From: a virus | Lineage: Duplodnaviria; Heunggongvirae; Uroviricota; Caudoviricetes | Virus record (IMG/VR): IMGVR_UViG_3300043466_002831 | Location: 57,364-121,363 of that record | DNA length: 64,000 bases | Direction: 5' to 3' (one strand) | In this document: piece after piece, positions 16,732 through 30,020 of the stretch | Numbering within the stretch: position 1 is the first letter of the stretch | Layout of the letters: every line of letters starts with the position of its first letter | Notes under the pieces: model-generated | The model's input: the letters and a program-made list of their open reading frames with translations, nothing else | What the model was told of the DNA's origin: nothing | Databases searched by the model: none | Made by a program: the position numbers and the translations under genes

Positions 16732-18087
16732 ATGGATAAACGTCATTACAATAGATGGTCTGATGAAGACTTAAAAAAAGAAGCGTTAAAGTATTCAACA
16801 TTATCGGATTTCAAAAATAACGCTAGTTCACAGTATAGGCAATCTTTAAAAAGGGGTAAAGAATTTTTTGATAACATAACATCTCACATAACAAGAAAAT
16901 GTGCGAATCTTTCTAAAAATGAATTAAAACAAATTGCTTTGAGATATGAATATAAAGGAGAATTTCAAAAATATGATAAAGCGGCATATCTTTCGGCGTT
17001 AAGAAGAGGACGTGAATTTTTTAACGACATTACTTCTCACATGAAAAATAAGTTAAATTATTGGACTGATGAGATTTTAAGAAATGAAGTACTTAAATAC
17101 CAAACGAAACTTGAATTCAAAAAAAACAATTTTAAAGCGTATCAGGCTGCAATGTCTAAAGGTAAAAATTTTTGGTATGATGTAACATCTCATATGGATA
17201 ATAGTCATTTTACAAGATGGACCAAAGAATTATTAACACAAGAAGCTTTGAAACATAATACTTTAACTGATTTTAAGCAAAAAAGTAAAGGTGCTCATAG
17301 TGCTGCAAAAAAAATAGGTATCGATTTCTTTAATTTAATAACTTCACATATGCCACAACCTAAAAGGTGGACCTACGAAGAATTAAAAAATGAAGCCTTG
17401 AAATATACCACAAAGTCAGACTTCCGAAAAAACAATAGGAATGCATATCAAGTTTCAAAAGAAAGAAAGATATTAAATGATATTTGTACACACATGGAAA
17501 AAATAGGTAGCAAATACTCAAGAATTATTTATACGTATGAATTTTCCGATAATAGTGTTTACGTAGGATTGACCTACAAACCATCTCAAAGACATAGTGA
17601 CCACATGAGCAAAAAAAATTCTGCGGTTTTCCTTTATATGGAAAAAACAGGGTTAGTACCTATAAAAAAAATAATGACCGATTTTTTAAATAAAGATGAT
17701 GCATCTGAGATGGAAACTGAAATACTGAACAAATACCGTAATGAAGGATGGAAAATTTTAAATCGTACTAAAACTGGAGGGTTGGGTGGATTTACAAGAC
17801 GTTGGACACCCGAAAACATAGAAAAAGAAGCACTTAAGTATGATACACTAACTGAATTTTATAAAAATTCACGCGCAGTAACTGTCGCCGCCAAAAAAAT
17901 AGGTGAAGACTTTTATAAAAAAATTATTTCTCATATGAAACGAACTACAGTTTGGACCGAAGAACTTTTAAGAGAAGAATCCCAAAATTATAAAACTAGA
18001 ACTCATTTTGCAAGGGGAAGTACGAGCGCATATTATACTTCTAAAAAGAGAGGATTATTAGATAAGTTTTTTCCGAGAAAGAAATGA
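16732..18087 (+). CDS. GIY-YIG homing-endonuclease-like protein embedded in seven ~48-aa tandem repeat modules
   Basis: GIY-YIG core IYTYEFSDNSVYVGLTYKPSQRHSDH...N. Seven repeats of the pattern W(T/S)xEEL(K/R)xEALKYxT(K/L)xxFxKNxxxAYxxxxK(R/K)GxxFFxxITSHM, five before and two after the nuclease core. Confidence 0.7.
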   Translation: MDKRHYNRWSDEDLKKEALKYSTLSDFKNNASSQYRQSLKRGKEFFDNITSHITRKCANLSKNELKQIALRYEYKGEFQKYDKAAYLSALRRGREFFNDITSHMKNKLNYWTDEILRNEVLKYQTKLEFKKNNFKAYQAAMSKGKNFWYDVTSHMDNSHFTRWTKELLTQEALKHNTLTDFKQKSKGAHSAAKKIGIDFFNLITSHMPQPKRWTYEELKNEALKYTTKSDFRKNNRNAYQVSKERKILNDICTHMEKIGSKYSRIIYTYEFSDNSVYVGLTYKPSQRHSDHMSKKNSAVFLYMEKTGLVPIKKIMTDFLNKDDASEMETEILNKYRNEGWKILNRTKTGGLGGFTRRWTPENIEKEALKYDTLTEFYKNSRAVTVAAKKIGEDFYKKIISHMKRTTVWTEELLREESQNYKTRTHFARGSTSAYYTSKKRGLLDKFFPRKK

Positions 18088-18135: not shown

Positions 18136-18447
18136 ATGAATCTAAAAGAATCCATAAGAAGAATAATAAGAGAAGAATTTAAATCGAAATTCTTTATTAG
18201 AAGAGTTGATTTAGATTTAGCTAAAGACATGCTTCCAATTAATGCAGAACAAGTATACCATGAAACTGAAAGTTATGAGCAATTCAAATATGAATTAACT
18301 TTAAGGGTTGTGGAAGCAATTATGTGGAATAAGTATGAACTTGGTTGGGAAGATTTACCTGAACAAGAAGAAATAGAATACGTGACTAAACTTTCGGATG
18401 CATTCGAGAAAACAATTAAACGGTTATATCATATTTATCATAATTAA
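18136..18447 (+). CDS. NTM family protein (MNLKESIR variant)
   Basis: MNLKESIRRIIREEFKSK; the AAGTATTTATTAATATG cassette lies upstream. Confidence 0.65.
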   Translation: MNLKESIRRIIREEFKSKFFIRRVDLDLAKDMLPINAEQVYHETESYEQFKYELTLRVVEAIMWNKYELGWEDLPEQEEIEYVTKLSDAFEKTIKRLYHIYHN

Positions 18448-18451
18448 TAAT

Positions 18452-18530
18452 ACAATTCATTCACTCACTACAAAGGGAGACTCCATTCGGGTCTCCTTTT
18501 TCGTTCACTCATGTATTGTATTATTTATCG
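18452..18530 (+). repeat. ~75-bp direct repeat copy A (contains terminator-like hairpin GGAGAC...GTCTCC + TTTTT)
   Basis: CATTCACTCACTACAAAGGGAGACTCCATTCGGGTCTCCTTTTTCGTTCACTCATGTATTGTATTATTT is nearly identical to the copy at 20808-20880. Confidence 0.8.
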
Positions 18531-19077: not shown

Positions 19078-19386
19078 ATAAAATAAATATAGGTCAACAA
19101 CCTTATATTCCCTTACGGTAATATTCTTTCAGATTACAGTTATACTTTCAGGTATAATACCGTTCGGTATAATACAATTACATCTCTATAAAGGATATGT
19201 GGTAATAATTAGGACATATCCTAAACAGTAATGTATAATTGTTTTACATGATACGGTTCTCATGTATAGAAAGTTTACATACGGTAAATTTAAATGATTT
19301 TACCGTTTACTCTAAATCTGACGGTAAAATATTTGAAGATATAAAAAATATTAATATATTTGTATCATTAACTAACAATAAGAACA

Positions 19387-19895: not shown

Positions 19896-20804
19896 ATGTT
19901 AGTTCGCGAGTGTCCATCATGTAATAGTAATATCACATATTCTAATAAGGATAATTTTAATAGTGCCAATAAAAAAGGTAGTTTGTGTAAAAAGTGTGCC
20001 GAGGCAGAGAAACACGGTAGAAAAACTATTACGGACATAAATACATTTTTTAGACTCTATAGCGAAGAACGTAGAAGTGTGGAGGATATTGCAAAACACT
20101 TTGAAGTGTTACCTAGCACTGTTAAAAATTATGCCAACCATAATAAAATAAACAGACGAGATTACGATATTATTATGGAAAAAGAAGGTAAAAAAAGGTG
20201 TCATGGATGTAAATCTTTTTATGTCTTTGATGACTTTCATAAAAACAATAACACTAGAGATGGATTGGTAACCAAGTGTAAAAAATGTATGTGTGAGAAA
20301 TCAAATGATTATAAAGATAAAAATCTTGAACGAGTGTTAAAATCTACAAAGGAATATTCAAAACGAATGAAAGAAGAAAATCCTGAGACCTTTAAAAAGT
20401 GGAGAAAAACCGCTAAAAAAAATTACTTAAACAGTGAGATTGGTAAGTGGGATAGTAAATGTCGTTCTATATTAAAAAGAGCTTTATCTAAAATGGGTTT
20501 AACTAAAAATGATACCACTAACAAATTATTAGGGTATTCACCTAAACAACTTCTTGATTATTTAAAAACTTTTGATTTATATTATGAGGGTGGATATGAA
20601 GTTGACCACAAAGTACCTATTAGTTATTTTAAATTAGGAACTCACCCAAGTATCATTAATTCATTATGTAATTTACAATTAACCACCATTAAATATAATC
20701 AAAATAAAAGTAATAAGTTTGCCGACCCAATTACTATTGATTATTATGATAATATTAAACTACATATTAAAGAAGAATGTCTTAATAAACTTATTGTGAA
20801 ATAA
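19896..20804 (+). CDS. HNH homing endonuclease with two N-terminal Cys4 zinc-finger-like modules
   Basis: CPSCNS...CKKC and CHGCKS...CKKCMC; C-terminal HNH signature YEVDHKVPISYF...N. ATG at 19896 preceded by TATATTTG-N4. Flanked by a 75-bp direct repeat. Confidence 0.7.
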   Translation: MLVRECPSCNSNITYSNKDNFNSANKKGSLCKKCAEAEKHGRKTITDINTFFRLYSEERRSVEDIAKHFEVLPSTVKNYANHNKINRRDYDIIMEKEGKKRCHGCKSFYVFDDFHKNNNTRDGLVTKCKKCMCEKSNDYKDKNLERVLKSTKEYSKRMKEENPETFKKWRKTAKKNYLNSEIGKWDSKCRSILKRALSKMGLTKNDTTNKLLGYSPKQLLDYLKTFDLYYEGGYEVDHKVPISYFKLGTHPSIINSLCNLQLTTIKYNQNKSNKFADPITIDYYDNIKLHIKEECLNKLIVK

Positions 20805-20807
20805 TAC

Positions 20808-20880
20808 ATTCCATTCACTCACTACAAAGGGAGACTCCATTCGGGTCTCCTTTTTCGTTCACTCATGTATTGTATTATTT
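20808..20880 (+). repeat. ~75-bp direct repeat copy B
   Basis: Same sequence as 18452-18530, immediately downstream of the HNH endonuclease gene. Confidence 0.8.
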
Positions 20881-21490
20881 CCCCCGCCTAATAGTCGGGT
20901 CCCCACCTAAACGAATAGACAGGTGAGATGTGATGTAGTGGATTATATGAGATTACATATAAGATAAGACCTTCGGTAAGAATTATATGTAATAAGATAT
21001 AATCCATAGAGTGTGGGTCAGGGATGGACTCGTAAGATAAGACCTACGGTCTATAATTAGAGAGTCCATTATTCTCCCACTTTCCTCCACTACGAGTTGT
21101 CTCCACTACGAAGGGACATAGATTGTCCACCTAACGAGGGGGTTTAATAACAAGTCGGTTCCCTCGTTGAAGGGGGATAAAATCCCTCTGAAACACTCCC
21201 TACGGTCGTTTCCCCGCCCTCTACACTTAGTGTTCCTTTTTTATCTGGAAATCGTATATAGTAAAAAAATGGTCCTCCTGATAGTGTCAGGGGGAAAAAA
21301 GTGGTCTTAATACTATCGTAATAAAGGAAATGGTGGTAGAAAGTGGGGGGAATTAGTACATAGGTGGGGAACCAAAAACCCGTCAAGGGATTATCCCCAA
21401 TGCAACGAGTCCCCTGACATTTTGACATTTCCAAATTTTTACCCCTAAAGTTATCAACAATCGACATTTATTTTCCCCCCTGACATAGTG
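20881..21490 (+). ncRNA. GC-enriched structured non-coding element (candidate structured RNA, intron-like or ribozyme-like; or replication-origin structure)
   Basis: Nested perfect hairpins: 20941-21004 (GATTATAT / TTACATATAA arms with a UUCG loop) and 21024-21069 (ATGGACTC / GAGTCCAT enclosing AGACC-UACG-GGTCT). Further helices AACGAGGG / CCCTCGTT and GGGGAT / ATCCC. No convincing ORF. Confidence 0.4.
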
Positions 21491-21554
21491 TCATGTGGAT
21501 AACTTAATTGTTAATAACTTTATTTTTATATGTTCCCCAACTATAATTAACGTC

Positions 21555-21797
21555 ATGAAGTATGTACTGACAGAAATAGATGACAGGATTAGAGTGACCA
21601 TCTCTAATGACGATAAAGAAATAGGTCTCCTTTATTTCGAGAAGGCTAAACTCAACTTTACAAATAAACCATTAAGCATGGGGTCATGGGCATGTGTCGA
21701 TGCCAAGATAGAAGATGATAGTATATTCCATGAAGGGTTCACCCCCAAACAAATGGTGGGGGAATGTCAGGACCTGATTAAAGCGGCGGGGTATTAA
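21555..21797 (+). CDS. hypothetical small protein (uncertain)
   Basis: ORF downstream of the structured non-coding region; MKYVLTEIDD is the more likely start than the track start 21495. Confidence 0.3.
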   Translation: MKYVLTEIDDRIRVTISNDDKEIGLLYFEKAKLNFTNKPLSMGSWACVDAKIEDDSIFHEGFTPKQMVGECQDLIKAAGY

Positions 21798-22262
21798 TTG
21801 TCCTTCTTAAAGAACATATTATATATCCCCACGACTAACCATCCCATGAATAGGTAAAACAAAATCTTTCTCATTAGAGTCTCTCTTTAATAAGTTTCTT
21901 AATATCATCCAAAGTGGTGACCTCTTTGTCCCCCAACATATCCTTAATAGAATTGTAAGCCCAAAGAACTGCGTAACCGATAACAACTGCTTTAATGAAT
22001 TTTTTCATGGTATATATATTTTCAACAAATATATGGAATAGTTGACACTATTCCAAATAAATTCAAACAATATTTCAATCCACCAAAGGGGCGGGGAAAA
22101 AAGATTAACCTCCTATAAAAAAATATAGGACGAGCTGCCTCTGATTAAGCTCCAAGGTATGTTCCACCTAGCCCTTCCTACTCCATCTTTCAGACAATAC
22201 AAAGGTACGGATTATATTTGACAACCCCAAACCTAAACACGAATATTTATTAATATATTTAA

Positions 22263-22700
22263 ATGACCATGACAGAAGAAGAACTATATGACAACTATGA
22301 ATTTAAGGTGACCAAGAGAGCCCTGATGAGAGAGTTTCCATTCATTAAGAATGTGTATGTGAAAGACCCCGCCACTATTGACCAATACAAGTCCTTCATC
22401 TTCTTAGATGCCGATATTAATCCCTATGAGTTCTCACATATGTATGGACTTAAGGTGGACAGGATAACAGACAAATACCTAAGACGAGGTGAACCTTATT
22501 GGGGACCATACCTTTCCCTGTTCATTACAGGTGGGGTTGATGATACATGGCCCATTAAGAAAGCCATTGGTGATTTGATTGATGGTATTCATAAGTCACC
22601 TGCCATACCACAAGAACTAAAGTTGGATAGGGAACTTGAGATATCATCTTACCATGCCAATCCTGATACTCTACCACGTGACATCATGTCATACAAATAA
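22263..22700 (+). CDS. hypothetical protein
   Basis: 145-aa ORF within the non-coding-rich hub. Confidence 0.5.
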   Translation: MTMTEEELYDNYEFKVTKRALMREFPFIKNVYVKDPATIDQYKSFIFLDADINPYEFSHMYGLKVDRITDKYLRRGEPYWGPYLSLFITGGVDDTWPIKKAIGDLIDGIHKSPAIPQELKLDRELEISSYHANPDTLPRDIMSYK

Positions 22701-22856
22701 AAGTTATTAACAATGGGAGGGGAGGGATAAAAGTTATTAACATGTCCCCCCTTTGGCATGGGGGCATACCCCCCTATGGGTACCCCCTCCCCCCCGTATC
22801 CCCCCTTACATACTGTCATATTGTCAGTTTAGGGGGGATAATCCCCTGTATAACGG

Positions 22857-22901
22857 GAAATAAAATTTTGGGAAAAAAATGTTCCTTTTTTGACTATTTA
22901 T
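22857..22901 (+). repeat. 45-bp direct repeat copy 1 (promoter-region repeat)
   Basis: GAAATAAAATTTTGGGAAAAAAATGTTCCTTTTTTGACTATTTAT is 43/45 identical to the copy at 23079-23123. Confidence 0.75.
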
Positions 22902-23007
22902 CTTATAGTAAAACTTATATATATGAAAAAGAATATCTGTTTATTGATTAAAAAAATTACTTTCGGGAAAGTTTGTCTCGGATGGTGTAAAATTTAATTA
23001 ACTTTAA

Positions 23008-23032
23008 CCCCTCCCACAAAGAGGGGTTTTTT
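23008..23032 (+). terminator. rho-independent terminator
   Basis: CCCCTC-CCACAAA-GAGGGG followed by TTTTTT. Confidence 0.7.
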
Positions 23033-23078
23033 ATTTCCTATAAACACGACCCCCTGTTTCGATTTAGTCCTATATACT

Positions 23079-23123
23079 GAAATAAAATTTTGGGAAAAAA
23101 ATGTCCCTTTTTTGACTATTTAT
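23079..23123 (+). repeat. 45-bp direct repeat copy 2
   Basis: GAAATAAAATTTTGGGAAAAAAATGTCCCTTTTTTGACTATTTAT, immediately upstream of the gene starting at 23129. Confidence 0.75.
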
Positions 23124-23128
23124 ATATT

Positions 23129-23428
23129 ATGGAAAAAGCGTTTGAGAAACTTCTTAGGAAATTGTTGTTAGAAAAGTATCCGATTTATTTGGATGTCCAT
23201 GTTTCCGAATCGGGAAAGTATACCCCTAATAAAAGAATTTGTTATGAGGTATTTCTTATTATTTTTGATGAATATTATGGAACATCTTGGAGTACAAAAC
23301 AAATTGATGAGGTTAAAGAATATGTTAATACTCTTGCAAAATATATGGATATAAATATTTGTGGGATTTATCATGAAGTTGTTAATGAGCAAGAATGGGA
23401 AGAAATGAAATTACCTATTAAAAATTAA
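23129..23428 (+). CDS. hypothetical protein
   Basis: ATG at 23129 (MEKAFEKLL...). The track start lies in the upstream 45-bp repeat. Terminator follows. Confidence 0.5.
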   Translation: MEKAFEKLLRKLLLEKYPIYLDVHVSESGKYTPNKRICYEVFLIIFDEYYGTSWSTKQIDEVKEYVNTLAKYMDINICGIYHEVVNEQEWEEMKLPIKN

Positions 23429-23430
23429 AC

Positions 23431-23455
23431 CCCCTCCCAACAGAGGGGTTTTTTT
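23431..23455 (+). terminator. rho-independent terminator
   Basis: CCCCTC-CCAACA-GAGGGG followed by TTTTTTT. Confidence 0.75.
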
Positions 23456-23505
23456 ATAATCCTCCAAATGTATGTTATAAAGGTGGGATTTGGAGGATTA
23501 TAACT
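23453..23505 (+). other. 13-bp perfect inverted repeat hairpin
   Basis: TAATCCTCCAAAT ...22 nt... ATTTGGAGGATTA, directly after a terminator. Confidence 0.6.
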
Positions 23506-23795
23506 TTTGTATTATATTTGTGGGATGGAAATATAGGGGTACATTTGGGGTTTCCAAAACACGACCCCCCTTTTGAAAAAGGTCCTAATATGTCAAAAAA
23601 AATTTTTGGGATTTTTTCTGTAAAATGGAACTCTACTAATTTGTAAAGTAAAACCCTTATAATATGTAAAGTGTGGGATTTTCCCCAACGGTAATATCCT
23701 GATAAATTAGGGGTGTATTATATTAAAGATTACCGAACGGGAATATCATTAACGGAGGGGTTTTTTATTTCAATTAATTTTATTATCTTTGTCTT

Positions 23796-24014
23796 ATGGA
23801 ACCTGATGAAAATGGATTAACCCATGTTACCTTACCTGAATTTATAAATACCATTTATGATATGAATGGGGAATTCAAATTAGATTGTTTGGATTTGGAT
23901 GGTATAGGTTTAGATACGAATATAGTATTGGTAAAATTAAAGGAGGTTGCACAAAGAAGTAAGATGGGGGGTAATAAAGGAATACATTTAACTTATGAAA
24001 AAGAAGGGGTATAG
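23796..24014 (+). CDS. hypothetical small protein
   Basis: 72-aa ORF. Confidence 0.4.
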   Translation: MEPDENGLTHVTLPEFINTIYDMNGEFKLDCLDLDGIGLDTNIVLVKLKEVAQRSKMGGNKGIHLTYEKEGV

Positions 24015-29096: not shown

Positions 29097-30020
29097 ATGA
29101 AGTACATTATCACTGAATCACAGTATAAGAATTTAATTGAATCTGATGACCGCTTAACCAAAATGGTTAATAGGTATTTGGACATGACATTCGGAAACAT
29201 GGTTCGAGTTGATACAAAGTTTGGTTCAGGTTATAAGTTTGACGGAGATGACCAATATCAACTTAATGTTTTCAAAAATGATTCAGGTAAATTGCAATTG
29301 GCAATTTCATCATCATTTATTAAACACCTTACCTCAATGTTTGATGTTTATAAATCTGAGGCGAGTGAACTTATTGCAGAATATTGTGAAGATGTTTTGG
29401 GTATGGAATTTGATTTTATACGAATTTGGCCAATTAAAATAACTGAATCAGATTTAACTCGAATAATTGAGAGAATCATACAAGAACAAGTTGCAACTGA
29501 ACCAATTAATTTTGATAAAGTATATAAATCCACTTATCCTAGTATGTTTAGACAAGTTTGTATGAAATATGCAAACGGAGATTATGACTTGGCATCTGAA
29601 TATTGCCAACTTGGATATTTGAGAGTTAACGATAAACTCCACACATTTAAGGGTGAAGGTAGTTTGGAGGGTTGGATTCGTCGTGTGATTACAACAACAA
29701 TCATCAATGAGTTCAGAGCTAAGAAAAGAAAAATCGACACAACAAGTGATTTTGATTTTGAAAGAAACGATGTTTCAGATGAACCTGAAGAAAAATATGA
29801 AGATATTGAGTTTATGGGTAAGTATACCGTGGCAGATATTAAAAACGCCATTGATTCTCTCCCTAAAGGTTATCAATTTGTTTTCTACCAATATTTCTAT
29901 AAAGACAAATCTCATAAGGAAATTGCTGACGCTTTGGGAATTGACGAAGGTACATCAAGGTCCCAATTGTCAAAAGCTAAAAAGAAGATTAAGGATTACT
30001 TGGAAAGTTTAAAAAGATAA
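29097..30020 (+). CDS. ECF-type sigma-70 family factor fused to an NTM-family N-terminal region
   Basis: N-terminus MKYIITESQYKNLIESDD. The C-terminal half has a region-2-like segment (LEGWIRRVITTTIINEFRAKKRK) and a region-4 helix-turn-helix (LPKGYQFVFYQYFYKDKSHKEIADALGIDEGTSRSQLSKAKKKIKDYL). Confidence 0.7.
   Translation: MKYIITESQYKNLIESDDRLTKMVNRYLDMTFGNMVRVDTKFGSGYKFDGDDQYQLNVFKNDSGKLQLAISSSFIKHLTSMFDVYKSEASELIAEYCEDVLGMEFDFIRIWPIKITESDLTRIIERIIQEQVATEPINFDKVYKSTYPSMFRQVCMKYANGDYDLASEYCQLGYLRVNDKLHTFKGEGSLEGWIRRVITTTIINEFRAKKRKIDTTSDFDFERNDVSDEPEEKYEDIEFMGKYTVADIKNAIDSLPKGYQFVFYQYFYKDKSHKEIADALGIDEGTSRSQLSKAKKKIKDYLESLKR

What the first reader, a model, noticed from the sequence alone, without database searches (positions are those of the whole stretch)
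21280..23790. Non-coding hub with repeated short motifs, G/C-tract hairpin, 45-bp repeats and palindromes: putative origin or regulatory centre
CCCC(C)TGACA / TGTCAGGGG(G) occurs four times in both orientations (around 21283, 21414, 21477 and 22812), including the palindrome TGACATAGTGTCA. Palindromic GGGAT-N1-3-ATCCC occurs around 21175, 21390 and 22838. A G-tract/C-tract imperfect hairpin (GGGAGGGGAGGG ... CCCCCTCCCCCCC) lies at about 22714-22800, with a duplicated AAGTTATTAACA. Two 45-bp direct repeats (22857-22901 and 23079-23123) each precede a small gene. A 13-bp perfect inverted repeat lies at 23453-23505. Short repeated motifs around 23580-23760 include GGGATTTT and AACGG[TG]AATATC. 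ORF density is low and strand polarity switches here. Iteron-like repeats plus a high density of palindromes are typical of phage replication origins or packaging sites.
Basis: seen in the sequence. Interest (0 to 1): 0.7.

Follow-up and report, generated by a model that had tools for sequence, protein, structure and literature searches.

The report
Phage genome ends and control region
The motif-rich non-coding stretch is real and is most likely the place where an uncultured freshwater Flavobacterium-type phage cuts its DNA to make about 1.4-kb terminal repeats, which carry host DnaA-box-like sites; it is an unusual version of a known kind of phage element.

Summary
The motifs exist and occur nowhere else in the 64 kb. 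About 120 related freshwater metagenome contigs show what they are. Two non-coding blocks, E1 (20881-21554) and E2 (22679-22886), bracket two small conserved genes. Both blocks are more conserved than the proteins. Each carries the same site set: AAGTTATCCACA-type DnaA boxes, TGWCA-N3-TGWCA, and a palindrome GGGGAT-W-ATCCCC.

Six independent contigs start exactly at the centre of the E1 palindrome (21393). Five stop exactly at the centre of the E2 palindrome (22839). Contigs that start at the first read through the second; contigs that stop at the second read through the first. This fits a linear genome with a 1447-bp direct terminal repeat (21393-22839), cut at two copies of one palindrome.

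Upstream lie two long hairpins whose shape is conserved but whose sequence is not; RNA or single-stranded DNA is unresolved. Downstream lie promoter/terminator cassettes; the 45-bp repeats are duplicated promoter-like ends of E2.

The closest analogue is the phage T5 terminal-repeat DnaA-box region. An origin role is neither shown nor excluded. There is no strand switch and there are no true iterons.

The parts
20800..20880 (+). 81-nt terminator module: hairpin 20830-20850 followed by TTTTT. A second copy lies at about 18443-18525.
   Evidence: Read. It is 91-97% identical in all related lineages and often sits 0-2.1 kb upstream of E1.
20881..21106 (.). E1a, a domain conserved in structure. 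It has C-rich boxes TCCCCCGCC and GTCCCCACC and two long three-tier hairpins, HP1 (20938-21007) and HP2 (21013-21080). A tentative closing helix pairs AGACA (20918-20922) with TGTCT (21098-21102).
   Evidence: Every lineage has two hairpins between conserved junction strings, yet the stem sequences are unrelated: 11 sequence families, each with 19-47 predicted pairs. The z-score is -3 to -10 against shuffles on both strands. Apical loops read CC-UNC-GG on the + strand, which is CC-GNA-GG on the - strand. The closing helix shows one G-C to A-U covariation, confined to one group of similar sequences. There is no Rfam match.
21107..21386 (.). Fixed-length conserved flank to the left of the first cut site. 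It contains A-tract + (G/A)TGG repeats (21266, 21298, 21331, 21343, 21364), the palindrome GGGATAAAATCCC (21174-21186), and an inverted repeat 21075-21089 / 21333-21347.
   Evidence: The stretch 21075-21398 is 321-324 nt long in 30 of 34 distinct sequences. The inverted repeat is 98.5% pairable, with 2 pairs that change on both sides. Other predicted RNA pairs lack covariation, and the hairpin at 21279-21293 is broken in roughly a third of the sequences.
21387..21397 (.). pal1, GGGATTATCCC (centre T at 21392): putative left-end cleavage site.
   Evidence: Six contigs from six samples begin at 21393 or 21392 (ATCCCC...). That is 6 of the 74 real left ends lying upstream of the anchor; no other position is shared like this. 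The palindrome was found intact in 93 related contigs spanning all the lineage groups compared.
21393..22839 (.). Putative direct terminal repeat, 1447 nt here and 1169-1447 nt in relatives.
   Evidence: L119, L153 and L200 start at pal1 and read through an intact pal2. L116, L179, L191 and L199 contain upstream sequence and an intact pal1, and stop at pal2.
21411..21554 (.). E1b site array plus leader: CCCCTGACA (21411, 21477), TGACATTTTGACA (21415-21427), box 21448-21459 (+), TGACATAGTGTCA (21481-21493), boxes 21494-21505 (-) and 21509-21520 (-), and the conserved TTTATTTTTATATGTTCC.
   Evidence: The array is conserved even in lineages whose ORF80 is only 47-49% identical. Box spacing is kept to within 1 nt in L136, the one relative compared.
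21555..21797 (+). ORF80, a conserved small gene inside the repeat.
21874..22008 (-). 44-aa ORF in a variable insert (about 21798-22089).
   Evidence: The insert is absent from the L001 lineage and present in others.
22263..22700 (+). ORF145, a conserved small gene inside the repeat. Its last codons contain TGACATCATGTCA.
   Evidence: 155 homologue clusters. The AlphaFold2 model has pLDDT 92.7 with no PDB fold match.
22679..22846 (.). E2 site array: TGACATCATGTCA (22679-22691), boxes at 22701-22712 and 22731-22742, GGGAGGGGAGGG (22715-22726), the hairpin GGGGG-CATA-CCCCC (22760-22774), the near-invariant ACCCCCTCCCCCCCGTATCCCCCCTTA (22782-22808), TGTCATATTGTCA (22814-22826), and pal2 GGGATAATCCC (22835-22845, centre A at 22840).
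   Evidence: The alignment of 20 distinct sequences is. E2 is 89% identical where the adjacent ORF is 66-67%. Five contigs end at 22839 (...GGGGGAT). A 98.8-kb IMG/VR contig ends inside the C-run.
22857..22901 (+). 45-bp repeat, copy 1. Its first 29 nt (to TGTTCC) are the conserved end of E2; the rest belongs to the first cassette. It is promoter-like.
   Evidence: Conservation across lineages stops at TGTTCC.
22923..23028 (+). Cassette 1: a 24-aa micro-ORF (22923-22997) plus an intrinsic terminator (23006-23028).
   Evidence: The cassette has no counterpart in L090, L091, L102, L112 and L113, where E3 follows within about 180 nt of E2.
23079..23123 (+). 45-bp repeat, copy 2: a duplicated promoter-like end of E2.
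23129..23448 (+). Cassette 2: ORF99 (23129-23428) plus an intrinsic terminator (23431-23448).
   Evidence: The cassette is 97% identical in lineages whose core genes are only 66-69% identical, so it has been exchanged as a mosaic unit.
23454..23536 (+). A perfect 16-nt inverted repeat (23454-23469 / 23488-23503) overlaps the -33 TTTG (23489-23492) of a Bacteroidota-type promoter whose -7 box lies at 23513-23520. A truncated ORF follows (ATG GAA ATA TAG, 23525-23536).
   Evidence: L106 keeps the inverted repeat through a compensatory change and has an intact ORF.
23551..23795 (+). E3, a third conserved non-coding block. It holds the GGGATTTT and AACGG[TG]AATATC motifs and ends in the -7 box 23784-23791 of ORF 23796-24014.
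   Evidence: E3 is 80-91% identical in several lineages.

Best explanation
The region is the concatemer junction and terminal-repeat region of a linear double-stranded DNA phage of a Bacteroidota host, probably Flavobacterium-like. The window comes from an assembly in which the two terminal repeats are collapsed into one copy.

Proposed mechanism. A phage nuclease, most likely terminase, cuts replicated DNA at the centres of two copies of one short palindrome, GGGGAT-W-ATCCCC: pal1 at 21392 and pal2 at 22840. Left genome ends begin at 21393 and right ends stop at 22839. Every virion DNA therefore carries the 1447-bp segment 21393-22839 at both ends.

The two edges of this repeat (E1b and E2) are partly mirror images. 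They carry DnaA-box-like 12-mers, TGWCA-N3-TGWCA sites and G/C tracts, so both physical ends present a similar array of protein-binding sites. I infer that these arrays, together with the fixed-length repeat-rich flank left of pal1, are the recognition sites for the packaging and cutting machinery. I also infer that host DnaA acts on the incoming or replicating ends.

Immediately after pal2, promoter-like sequences start short early-type gene cassettes, each closed by an intrinsic terminator.

Shown: motif exclusivity, conservation above coding level, contig ends at the palindromes, overlapping left-end and right-end contig classes, and hairpin structural conservation.

Inferred: which enzyme cuts, how the repeat is duplicated, DnaA binding, and the role of the hairpins.
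For: 1. Contig ends.
- Of 74 real contig left ends lying upstream of the E1 anchor, six fall on one position, the pal1 centre. About 0.2 would be expected from the local density of ends.
- Of 71 real right ends lying downstream of the E2 anchor, five fall on the pal2 centre.
- These contigs come from eleven different samples and carry three different contig-naming styles, which suggests several assemblers.

2. Two overlapping classes of contig.
- Contigs that start at pal1 run through an intact pal2 into downstream genes.
- Contigs that stop at pal2 contain upstream genes and an intact pal1.
- None of 9 contigs retrieved through downstream genes starts at pal2. None of 4 retrieved through the upstream gene ends at pal1.

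3. Both palindromes were found in sequences from all the lineage groups compared, 1169-1447 nt apart.

4. Other palindromes of similar or larger size in the region attract no contig ends. Ordinary graph breaks look different: two contigs from one sample overlap by 127 nt.

5. The edges of the segment share a 24-nt inverted repeat at +115 and +126 nt from the two ends: score 36 against 15.5 +/- 2.2 for shuffles.

6. E1 and E2 are more conserved than the proteins between them. All the motif families are confined to this region.

7. Perfect TTATCCACA boxes occur at 4.2 per kb inside E1/E2 and at most 0.14 per kb outside, over about 270 kb of related DNA.

8. The region lies between a terminator module that closes the upstream genes and a series of promoter/terminator cassettes.

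9. Several long related contigs (20-104 kb) end inside or within about 150 nt of this segment.
Against: - No reads were available, so neither read-start pile-ups nor twofold coverage of the segment could be checked.
- Many contigs read through both palindromes. That is expected for a collapsed repeat or for concatemers, but it also fits a circular map with occasional breaks.
- Retrieval was biased. Nearly all contigs were fetched through genes inside the segment, so the reciprocal ends (stop at pal1, start at pal2) were tested on only 13 contigs.
- No terminase gene was identified in the window.
- One contig (L162) carries 10 unrelated bases after GGGGGGAT.
- DnaA binding is inferred from sequence alone. 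Several lineages, the window included, carry mostly non-consensus boxes such as TTATCAACA and TTATTAACA.
Confidence: 0.55

Rival explanations
1. The region is a DnaA-dependent replication origin. The two DnaA-box clusters (E1b and E2) flanking two small genes would form a bipartite origin like some bacterial oriC regions, with unwinding in the AT-rich stretch next to the tandem boxes. This does not exclude the terminal-repeat reading.
For: - The only perfect DnaA box in the 64 kb lies here.
- Relatives have up to 6 perfect boxes in E1 plus E2, and in L136 the E1 boxes keep the window's spacing to within 1 nt.
- Tandem boxes are followed by the conserved TTTATTTTTAT.
- A-tracts lie upstream.
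Against: - Cumulative GC skew does not turn at 21-23 kb.
- ORF80 and ORF145 matched no Pfam or PHROG family and no known fold, so there is no evidence that either is an initiator.
- There are no regular iterons.
- Several lineages have no consensus box at all.
- In T5 a comparable conserved DnaA-box array lies in the terminal repeat, while the origins map near the genome centre.
Confidence: 0.15
2. The region is purely a transcription-control centre at the junction of late and early genes. The boxes and palindromes would be operators for host or phage regulators of the ORF80-ORF145 operon and of the early cassettes. The contig ends would be incidental.
For: - Promoter-like conserved ends are shared by E1-mid, E1b, E2 and the 45-bp repeat (...TGTTCC).
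- Bacteroidota -7 boxes abut start codons at 23513 and 23784; the window has 11 such sites against 2.1 expected.
- Terminators are enriched: 16 found against 5.6 expected.
- The phage encodes a sigma factor at 29097-30020.
- A 16-nt inverted repeat overlaps a -33 element.
Against: - This does not explain eleven contigs ending exactly at the two palindrome centres, nor the two overlapping contig classes.
- No canonical TTTG-N19-TAnnTTTG promoter was found in E1b or E2 by eye. This was not scanned formally.
Confidence: 0.15
3. pal1 and pal2 are crossover sites for site-specific recombination, so the 1.4-kb segment is invertible or excisable, and the recombination breaks the assemblies.
For: - The contig ends fall at short palindromic cores.
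- One contig (L117) carries an inverted copy of E2 beyond the 16-nt inverted repeat.
- The upstream ORF has a very weak resolvase-type HTH hit, E = 0.06.
Against: - Apart from L117, the contigs compared base by base with the window are colinear with it; none carries the segment inverted or deleted.
- Variant junctions in assembly graphs give contigs that overlap by k-1, as seen at 21861/21987. They do not give contigs that begin at the exact palindrome centre.
- No recombinase was identified nearby.
Confidence: 0.07
4. The main functional element is a large structured non-coding RNA (20881 to about 21400, + strand), and the rest is its promoter and terminator context.
For: - The + strand of 20860-21500 folds at z = -5.1.
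- Two hairpins are conserved in shape across 11 unrelated sequence families.
- A long-range complementarity, 21075-21089 with 21333-21347, is kept at 98.5% with 15 double-change cells.
Against: - Beyond HP1 and HP2 the conservation is at the sequence level, with little covariation.
- The 21279-21293 hairpin is broken in roughly a third of the sequences.
- An AACGAG/CTCGTT segment flips orientation between lineages.
- No promoter is recognisable upstream.
- Strand energetics and G-U counts do not favour one strand.
- The loops are equally GNA triloops on the minus DNA strand.
- There is no Rfam match.
Confidence: 0.1
5. The contig ends are an assembly or library artefact at palindromes and homopolymer runs.
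For: - The region assembles poorly. Most of the several hundred homologue clusters sit on contigs shorter than 3 kb.
- One contig ends in a run of 17 C.
- One contig folds back on itself (L117).
Against: - A 13-nt palindrome is shorter than any k-mer used in assembly.
- The same two positions recur in eleven samples and under three contig-naming styles.
- Neighbouring palindromes, including a perfect 16-nt inverted repeat, show no ends.
Confidence: 0.05

Closest known systems
Direct terminal repeats of T7-, T5- and N4-type phages, and their concatemer-junction processing (my own knowledge of these phages)
   Same: - Fixed genome ends, with the same sequence at both ends.
- One copy of the repeat in concatemers or collapsed assemblies.
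- Early genes and promoters start at or just after the repeat.
- T7 work proposed a hairpin-forming inverted repeat next to the junction as a processing intermediate (Chung, Nardone and Hinkle 1990, from memory). Here two long hairpins lie 310-450 nt left of pal1.
   Different: - Both repeat borders here are copies of one short palindrome, cut at its centre. I know of no such symmetry in T7 or T5.
- The repeat (1.2-1.4 kb) contains two conserved genes.
- There is no sequence or protein similarity to these phages.
[quoted passage not shown]
   Same: - Two non-coding blocks full of direct repeats, inverted repeats and palindromes, separated by genes.
- Both blocks are more conserved than the ORFs.
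- The blocks share inverted-repeat modules with fixed spacing.
- Each holds a consensus DnaA box TTATCCACA plus the same variants: TTATCAACA, TTATTAACA and TTATCCCCA.
- They lie in a terminal repeat.
- An HNH endonuclease gene is inserted nearby.
   Different: - No homologues of the T5 pre-early genes were found.
- The repeat is 1.4 kb, not 10 kb.
- The boxes are spaced 6-7 bp apart, not 3 bp.
- The host is a Bacteroidota member.
- The T5 function (DnaA-mediated injection stop) is itself only a hypothesis.
Terminase recognition regions (lambda cos with cosQ/cosN/cosB; SPP1 and P1 pac)
   Same: - A cut site with twofold symmetry.
- It is flanked by a fixed-length region of repeated short sites and A-tracts.
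   Different: - Lambda-type cos is a single site that gives cohesive ends. Here left and right ends map to two sites 1.45 kb apart.
- The terminase genes and their binding sites were not identified.
DnaA-box origins (bacterial oriC; P1 oriR and iteron plasmids)
   Same: - Clustered DnaA boxes in both orientations.
- They lie next to AT-rich DNA.
- The layout is bipartite around genes.
   Different: There is no initiator gene, no regular iterons and no skew signal. The boxes are degenerate in several lineages.
Nucleic-acid elements conserved in structure but variable in sequence (phi29 packaging RNA; T7 RNase III sites; single-strand origins of rolling-circle plasmids; GNA-triloop DNA mini-hairpins)
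   Same: - Hairpins keep their shape while their sequence turns over.
- A possible three-way junction.
- A location next to a genome end.
   Different: - There is no similarity to any Rfam family.
- The loops are closed stable triloops, not kissing loops.
- Whether the molecule is RNA or DNA, and on which strand, is unresolved.

Membership tests
Phage genome with direct terminal repeats (fixed ends) | Left and right molecule ends fall at fixed nucleotides, and the right end lies downstream of the left end on the collapsed map. | tested here: met
   Six contig starts fall at 21393/21392 and five contig stops at 22839. The two classes overlap. This is indirect evidence, from contigs rather than reads.
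Phage genome with direct terminal repeats (fixed ends) | About twofold read coverage of the repeat, and read-start pile-ups at its borders. | not testable with these tools
   No reads were available.
Phage genome with direct terminal repeats (fixed ends) | A single repeat copy joins genome units in concatemers or collapsed assemblies. | tested here: met
   The window and many other contigs read through both palindromes colinearly.
Lambda-type cos site | One cut site gives both ends, with cohesive overhangs. | tested here: not met
   The two ends map to two different sites 1447 nt apart.
T5-type terminal-repeat non-coding DnaA-box regions (iss) | Untranslated blocks of repeats and palindromes that are conserved more strongly than the neighbouring ORFs. 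| tested here: met
   compared.
T5-type terminal-repeat non-coding DnaA-box regions (iss) | Consensus and variant DnaA boxes lie at fixed positions in two blocks related as inverted repeats. | tested here: met
   The box spacing differs from T5.
T5-type terminal-repeat non-coding DnaA-box regions (iss) | Two-step DNA injection that depends on pre-early proteins A1 and A2. | tested here: not met
   No PHROG match to T5 pre-early proteins was found among 50 neighbouring ORFs. Injection itself cannot be tested here.
DnaA-dependent origin | A cluster of DnaA boxes. | tested here: met
DnaA-dependent origin | An adjacent unwinding element or initiator gene, and a compositional skew switch. | tested here: not met
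   There is no skew turn. ORF80 and ORF145 matched no known family or fold. The AT-rich stretch is short and was not analysed for DnaA-trios.
Iteron-type origin | Three or more regularly spaced direct repeats of about 17-22 bp. | tested here: not met
   There are only two exact AAARTGGTCYT copies, 32 bp apart. The motif is not enriched: 12 copies against 9.9 expected.
Known RNA families (Rfam 15) | A score at or above the family's gathering threshold. | tested here: not met
   No gathering-level hits in the window or in 14 related loci, and only weak chance-level hits at E <= 10.
Bacteroidota sigma-A promoters | A -7 box TAnnTTTG, with or without a -33 TTTG. | tested here: met
   TAnnTTTG-N4-ATG occurs 11 times against 2.1 expected, including 23513 (with TTTG 20 nt upstream) and 23784. 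This is not met for the 45-bp repeats, whose box is AAATTTTG.

The most novel reading that the evidence does not exclude
Both physical ends of this phage's DNA present mirror-image arrays of DnaA boxes, and these capture host DnaA to control DNA entry or the first round of replication. This would be a T5-like two-step or end-anchored strategy that evolved independently in Bacteroidota phages. In addition, the adjacent pair of shape-conserved hairpins would be a new structured nucleic-acid element (a packaging-type RNA or a single-strand DNA primer hairpin) needed to duplicate the terminal repeat.
Probability: 0.15. Interest if true: 0.8.

Novelty: new variant of a known kind. Interest (0 to 1): 0.5.

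Why it matters
- It gives nucleotide-exact termini and a candidate cleavage site, GGGGAT-W-ATCCCC, for a widespread uncultured group of freshwater phages. ORF80 has 422 homologue clusters. The termini come from metagenome contigs alone.
- It explains why this group assembles so badly.
- It shows that a DnaA-box array inside a terminal repeat, so far described only for T5-like coliphages, recurs in an unrelated phage of a different bacterial phylum. That makes the unproven DnaA hypothesis for T5 more worth testing.
- The hairpin pair and the near-invariant C-tract are unexplained conserved elements.

Tried and rejected
- **Known RNAs:** Rfam at gathering and at E <= 10, and a tRNA scan, found nothing.
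- **Cultured relatives:** blastn of the region, and tblastn of ORF80, ORF145 and the 901-aa protein against 50,697 phage records, gave no match.
- **Protein families:** Pfam and PHROGs on about 60 ORFs gave no replication, terminase or T5-like hits near the region.
- **RNA structure for the conserved 21082-21555 part:** rejected. Covariation is weak, one predicted hairpin is broken in many lineages, and one segment flips orientation.
- **G-tract/C-tract long hairpin:** the C-tract is nearly invariant, and G-tract changes are not compensated.
- **Iterons:** not enriched.
- **Strand assignment of HP1 and HP2:** energy and G-U counts were inconclusive. My first reading of the loops as UNCG tetraloops is withdrawn. 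They fold as CC-UNC-GG triloops, which on the other strand are GNA triloops.
- **GC skew:** no inflection.
- **Wasted scan:** one viral-collection scan was lost to a wrong spacer length.
- **Far ends of the 99-104 kb IMG/VR contigs:** the search found nothing.
- **GTDB scans:** the E1 pattern gave no hit. The E2 pattern gave one hit, in a Flavobacterium MAG, of uncertain relevance.
- **Hairpin-telomere (protelomerase) ends:** considered and rejected. The palindromes are only 13 nt and no such gene was seen.

Full report
**Context**

The window is an AT-rich (about 32% GC) phage-like genome. Nearly all genes from 1 to 51 kb are on the + strand. Two results point to a Bacteroidota host. One large protein carries a type IX secretion CHU_C domain. 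The Bacteroidota promoter box TAnnTTTG abuts a start codon 11 times, against 2.1 expected.

The lineage is uncultured. The region gives no nucleotide match in 50,697 phage records, and three proteins give no match there either. Most ORFs have no family assignment.

**Checking the observation**

The motifs are real, and within the 64 kb they are confined to this region.

| Motif | Copies in window | Expected |
|---|---|---|
| CCCCTGACA | 3, all in the region | 0.25 |
| GGGAT-N1-3-ATCCC | 3, all in the region | 0.10 |
| TGWCA-N3-TGWCA | 4, all in the region | 0.52 |
| AAGTTATYMACA (exact) | 6, 5 in the region | – |
| TTATCCACA (perfect) | 1, at 21494-21502 (-) | – |

The 45-bp repeats and a perfect 16-nt (not 13-nt) inverted repeat are confirmed. 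There is no strand switch. The long G/C 'hairpin' is not supported.

**Relatives**

ORF80 (21555-21797) has 422 homologue clusters and ORF145 (22263-22700) has 155. Almost all sit on short freshwater-lake contigs. I collected about 120 related contigs whose ORF80 is 47-100% identical to the window's.

In the contigs compared base by base with the window, the module 20800-22900 is colinear, apart from one fold-back contig, L117. Its non-coding parts are better conserved than its genes.
- A 270-nt stretch is identical but for one base where the adjacent ORF is 85% identical.
- E2 is 89% identical where ORF145 is 66-67%.
- E1b and E2 remain alignable in lineages with 47-49% protein identity.

I distinguish five parts:
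- **E1a** (20881-21106)
- **A fixed-length flank** (21107-21386)
- **E1b** (21387-21554)
- **E2** (22679-22886)
- **E3** (23551-23795)

**The DNA site arrays**

E1b and E2 each contain three elements:
- two TGWCA-N3-TGWCA sites;
- two or three 12-mers, AAGTTATYMACA;
- one palindrome, GGGGAT-W-ATCCCC.

In relatives the 12-mer is AAGTTATCCACA, which contains the consensus DnaA box. One lineage has six perfect boxes and another has four. Over about 270 kb of related DNA, perfect boxes occur at 4.2 per kb inside E1/E2. Outside they occur at no more than 0.14 per kb, and most of the 'outside' cases are E1/E2 copies that my anchor pattern missed. Box spacing in L136, the relative I compared, matches the window's to within 1 nt.

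The window's own boxes are mostly the variants TTATCAACA, TTATTAACA and TTATCCCCA. These are the same variants Davison lists for the conserved DnaA-box array in the untranslated repeat regions of the phage T5 terminal repeat. That array is also more conserved than the neighbouring ORFs, and it lies away from the T5 origins.

**Genome ends**

This is the main result. Contig ends cluster on two nucleotides.
- Of 74 real contig left ends lying upstream of the E1 anchor, six coincide. These contigs begin (T)ATCCCC..., the centre of pal1, at window 21393.
- Of 71 real right ends lying downstream of the E2 anchor, five coincide. These contigs end ...GGGGGAT, the centre of pal2, at window 22839.
- About 0.2 would be expected in each 2-nt window. 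The Poisson probabilities are of order 1e-7 and 1e-6; this estimate is my own.

The eleven contigs come from eleven samples and carry three different contig-naming styles, which suggests several assemblers. They differ in sequence near the ends.

The two classes overlap, which is the key point.
- L119, L153 and L200 start at pal1 and run through an intact pal2 into downstream genes.
- L116, L179, L191 and L199 contain upstream DNA and an intact pal1, and stop at pal2.

This is the signature of a linear genome with a direct terminal repeat. The repeat equals the pal1-pal2 segment: 1447 nt here and 1169-1447 nt in relatives. Both palindromes were found in sequences from all the lineage groups compared.

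Several controls fit this reading.
- Other palindromes in the region attract no contig ends.
- An ordinary graph break looks different, with a 127-nt overlap at 21861/21987.
- None of 9 contigs fetched through downstream genes starts at pal2, and none of 4 fetched through the upstream gene stops at pal1. These reciprocal samples are small.

Both ends lack the central base of the palindrome. That would fit a symmetric cut leaving a 1-nt 3' overhang that is removed in library preparation; this is inference.

Long related contigs (20-104 kb) also tend to end inside or within about 150 nt of this segment. One ends in a run of 17 C in E2.

The two edges of the repeat are partly mirror images. They share a 24-nt inverted repeat (box plus TTTATTT[TG]TAT) at +115 and +126 nt from the ends. 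Both physical ends would therefore present similar site arrays.

**The hairpins**

Between conserved junction strings, every lineage has two long three-tier hairpins. Their stem sequences fall into 11 unrelated families, and each family has 19-47 predicted pairs. They are much more stable than shuffled sequence on both strands. A short helix, AGACA/TGTCT, may close them into a three-way junction; it has one covarying pair, seen in one group of similar sequences only.

Most apical loops are CC-UNC-GG on the + strand, which reads CC-GNA-GG on the - strand. From my own knowledge, GNA triloops closed by C-G are unusually stable in DNA. So the loops do not tell RNA from single-stranded DNA, and neither energies nor G-U counts favour a strand. 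I withdraw my earlier reading of them as UNCG tetraloops.

The rest of E1 (21107-21554) is conserved as sequence, with fixed length and little covariation. One long-range inverted repeat is kept with two covarying pairs. There is no Rfam match.

**The right-hand third of the region**

Conservation of E2 stops at ...AAATTTTGGGAAAAAAATGTTCC. After that, lineage-specific cassettes follow. The 45-bp repeat is this conserved end plus the start of a cassette, duplicated once.

The window has two cassettes, each closed by an intrinsic terminator: a 24-aa micro-ORF and ORF99. In several relatives these cassettes have no counterpart and E3 follows within about 180 nt of E2. The 16-nt inverted repeat overlaps the -33 element of a canonical Bacteroidota promoter whose ORF is truncated here but intact in a relative.

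**Interpretation**

The best-supported reading is a concatemer junction and terminal-repeat region, cut at two copies of one palindrome. Packaging-recognition and host-interaction sites lie at both edges, and early-type transcription units start just beyond. My confidence is about 0.55.

An origin function is possible but unsupported beyond the DnaA boxes. ORF80 and ORF145 gave confident or fair models with no informative fold match, so they add nothing.

Compared with known systems, this is a new variant of a known kind. It has direct terminal repeats like T7, T5 and N4, and a DnaA-box array in the repeat like T5. It differs in having palindromic cut sites at both borders and an unexplained pair of shape-conserved hairpins.

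Noticed in passing
window 18443-18525 and 20800-20880: An 81-nt module (TTCACTCA repeats, a terminator hairpin and a T-run) occurs twice in the window. It is 91-97% identical even in the most distant relatives, more conserved than a plain terminator needs to be. In relatives, 0-2.1 kb of lineage-specific genes are inserted between it and E1.
   Followed up: partly
window 16732-18087 and 19896-20804: A GIY-YIG-domain ORF and an endonuclease VII / HNH-like ORF lie just upstream of the hub. They look like homing-endonuclease insertions in a variable island.
   Followed up: no
window, 11 sites (e.g. 3369, 13238, 19654, 19884, 23513, 23784, 24670, 51125): TAnnTTTG sits exactly 4 nt before ATG, 11 times against 2.1 expected. 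This suggests that many genes are expressed as leaderless or near-leaderless mRNAs from Bacteroidota-type promoters.
   Followed up: partly
window 29097-30020: A phage-encoded RNA polymerase sigma factor (PHROG 1740, E = 5e-22) lies about 6 kb downstream of the hub.
   Followed up: no
L148 5930-7165 (contig CAZDKB010000011.1, 'uncultured Flavobacterium sp.' MAG): An otherwise unrelated contig shares the 19-mer CCCCCCGTATCCCCCCTTA. There it lies inside another 1.2-kb non-coding stretch, with three copies of a long hairpin repeat and an A/T-run like E3. A single 19-mer hit in 596 Gb could be chance, but the context looks similar.
   Followed up: partly
L117 (contig Ga0102920_1025425) 1537-1793: The contig folds back. 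After the homologue of the 16-nt inverted repeat (window 23454-23503) it continues with E2 in inverted orientation. This is either a chimera or a real rearrangement.
   Followed up: no
L001 5535-5561 (homologue of window about 22782-22797): The C-tract of E2 is expanded to a run of 17 C in one 98.8-kb IMG/VR contig, which ends there. The minus strand of E2 (G6-N4-G7-N1-G5-N8-G6) fits a G-quadruplex motif.
   Followed up: no
window 21124-21132, compared with L092, L102 and L114: A short segment reads TAACGAGGGGG in some lineages and TCGTTGGGG in others, as if a 6-7 nt AACGAG element had flipped orientation. AACGAG/CTCGTT also recurs at 21163 and 21404.
   Followed up: no
window 19078-19386: Another gene-free stretch carries hairpins capped by CCGTTCGG- or CCTTACGG-type loops and ATTACGGTAAT palindromes. 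It was not analysed.
   Followed up: no
[not shown]
   Followed up: partly
L162 4269-4279: One contig carries 10 unrelated bases (ATCTCTCTTTC) directly after the GGGGGGAT of pal2.
   Followed up: no
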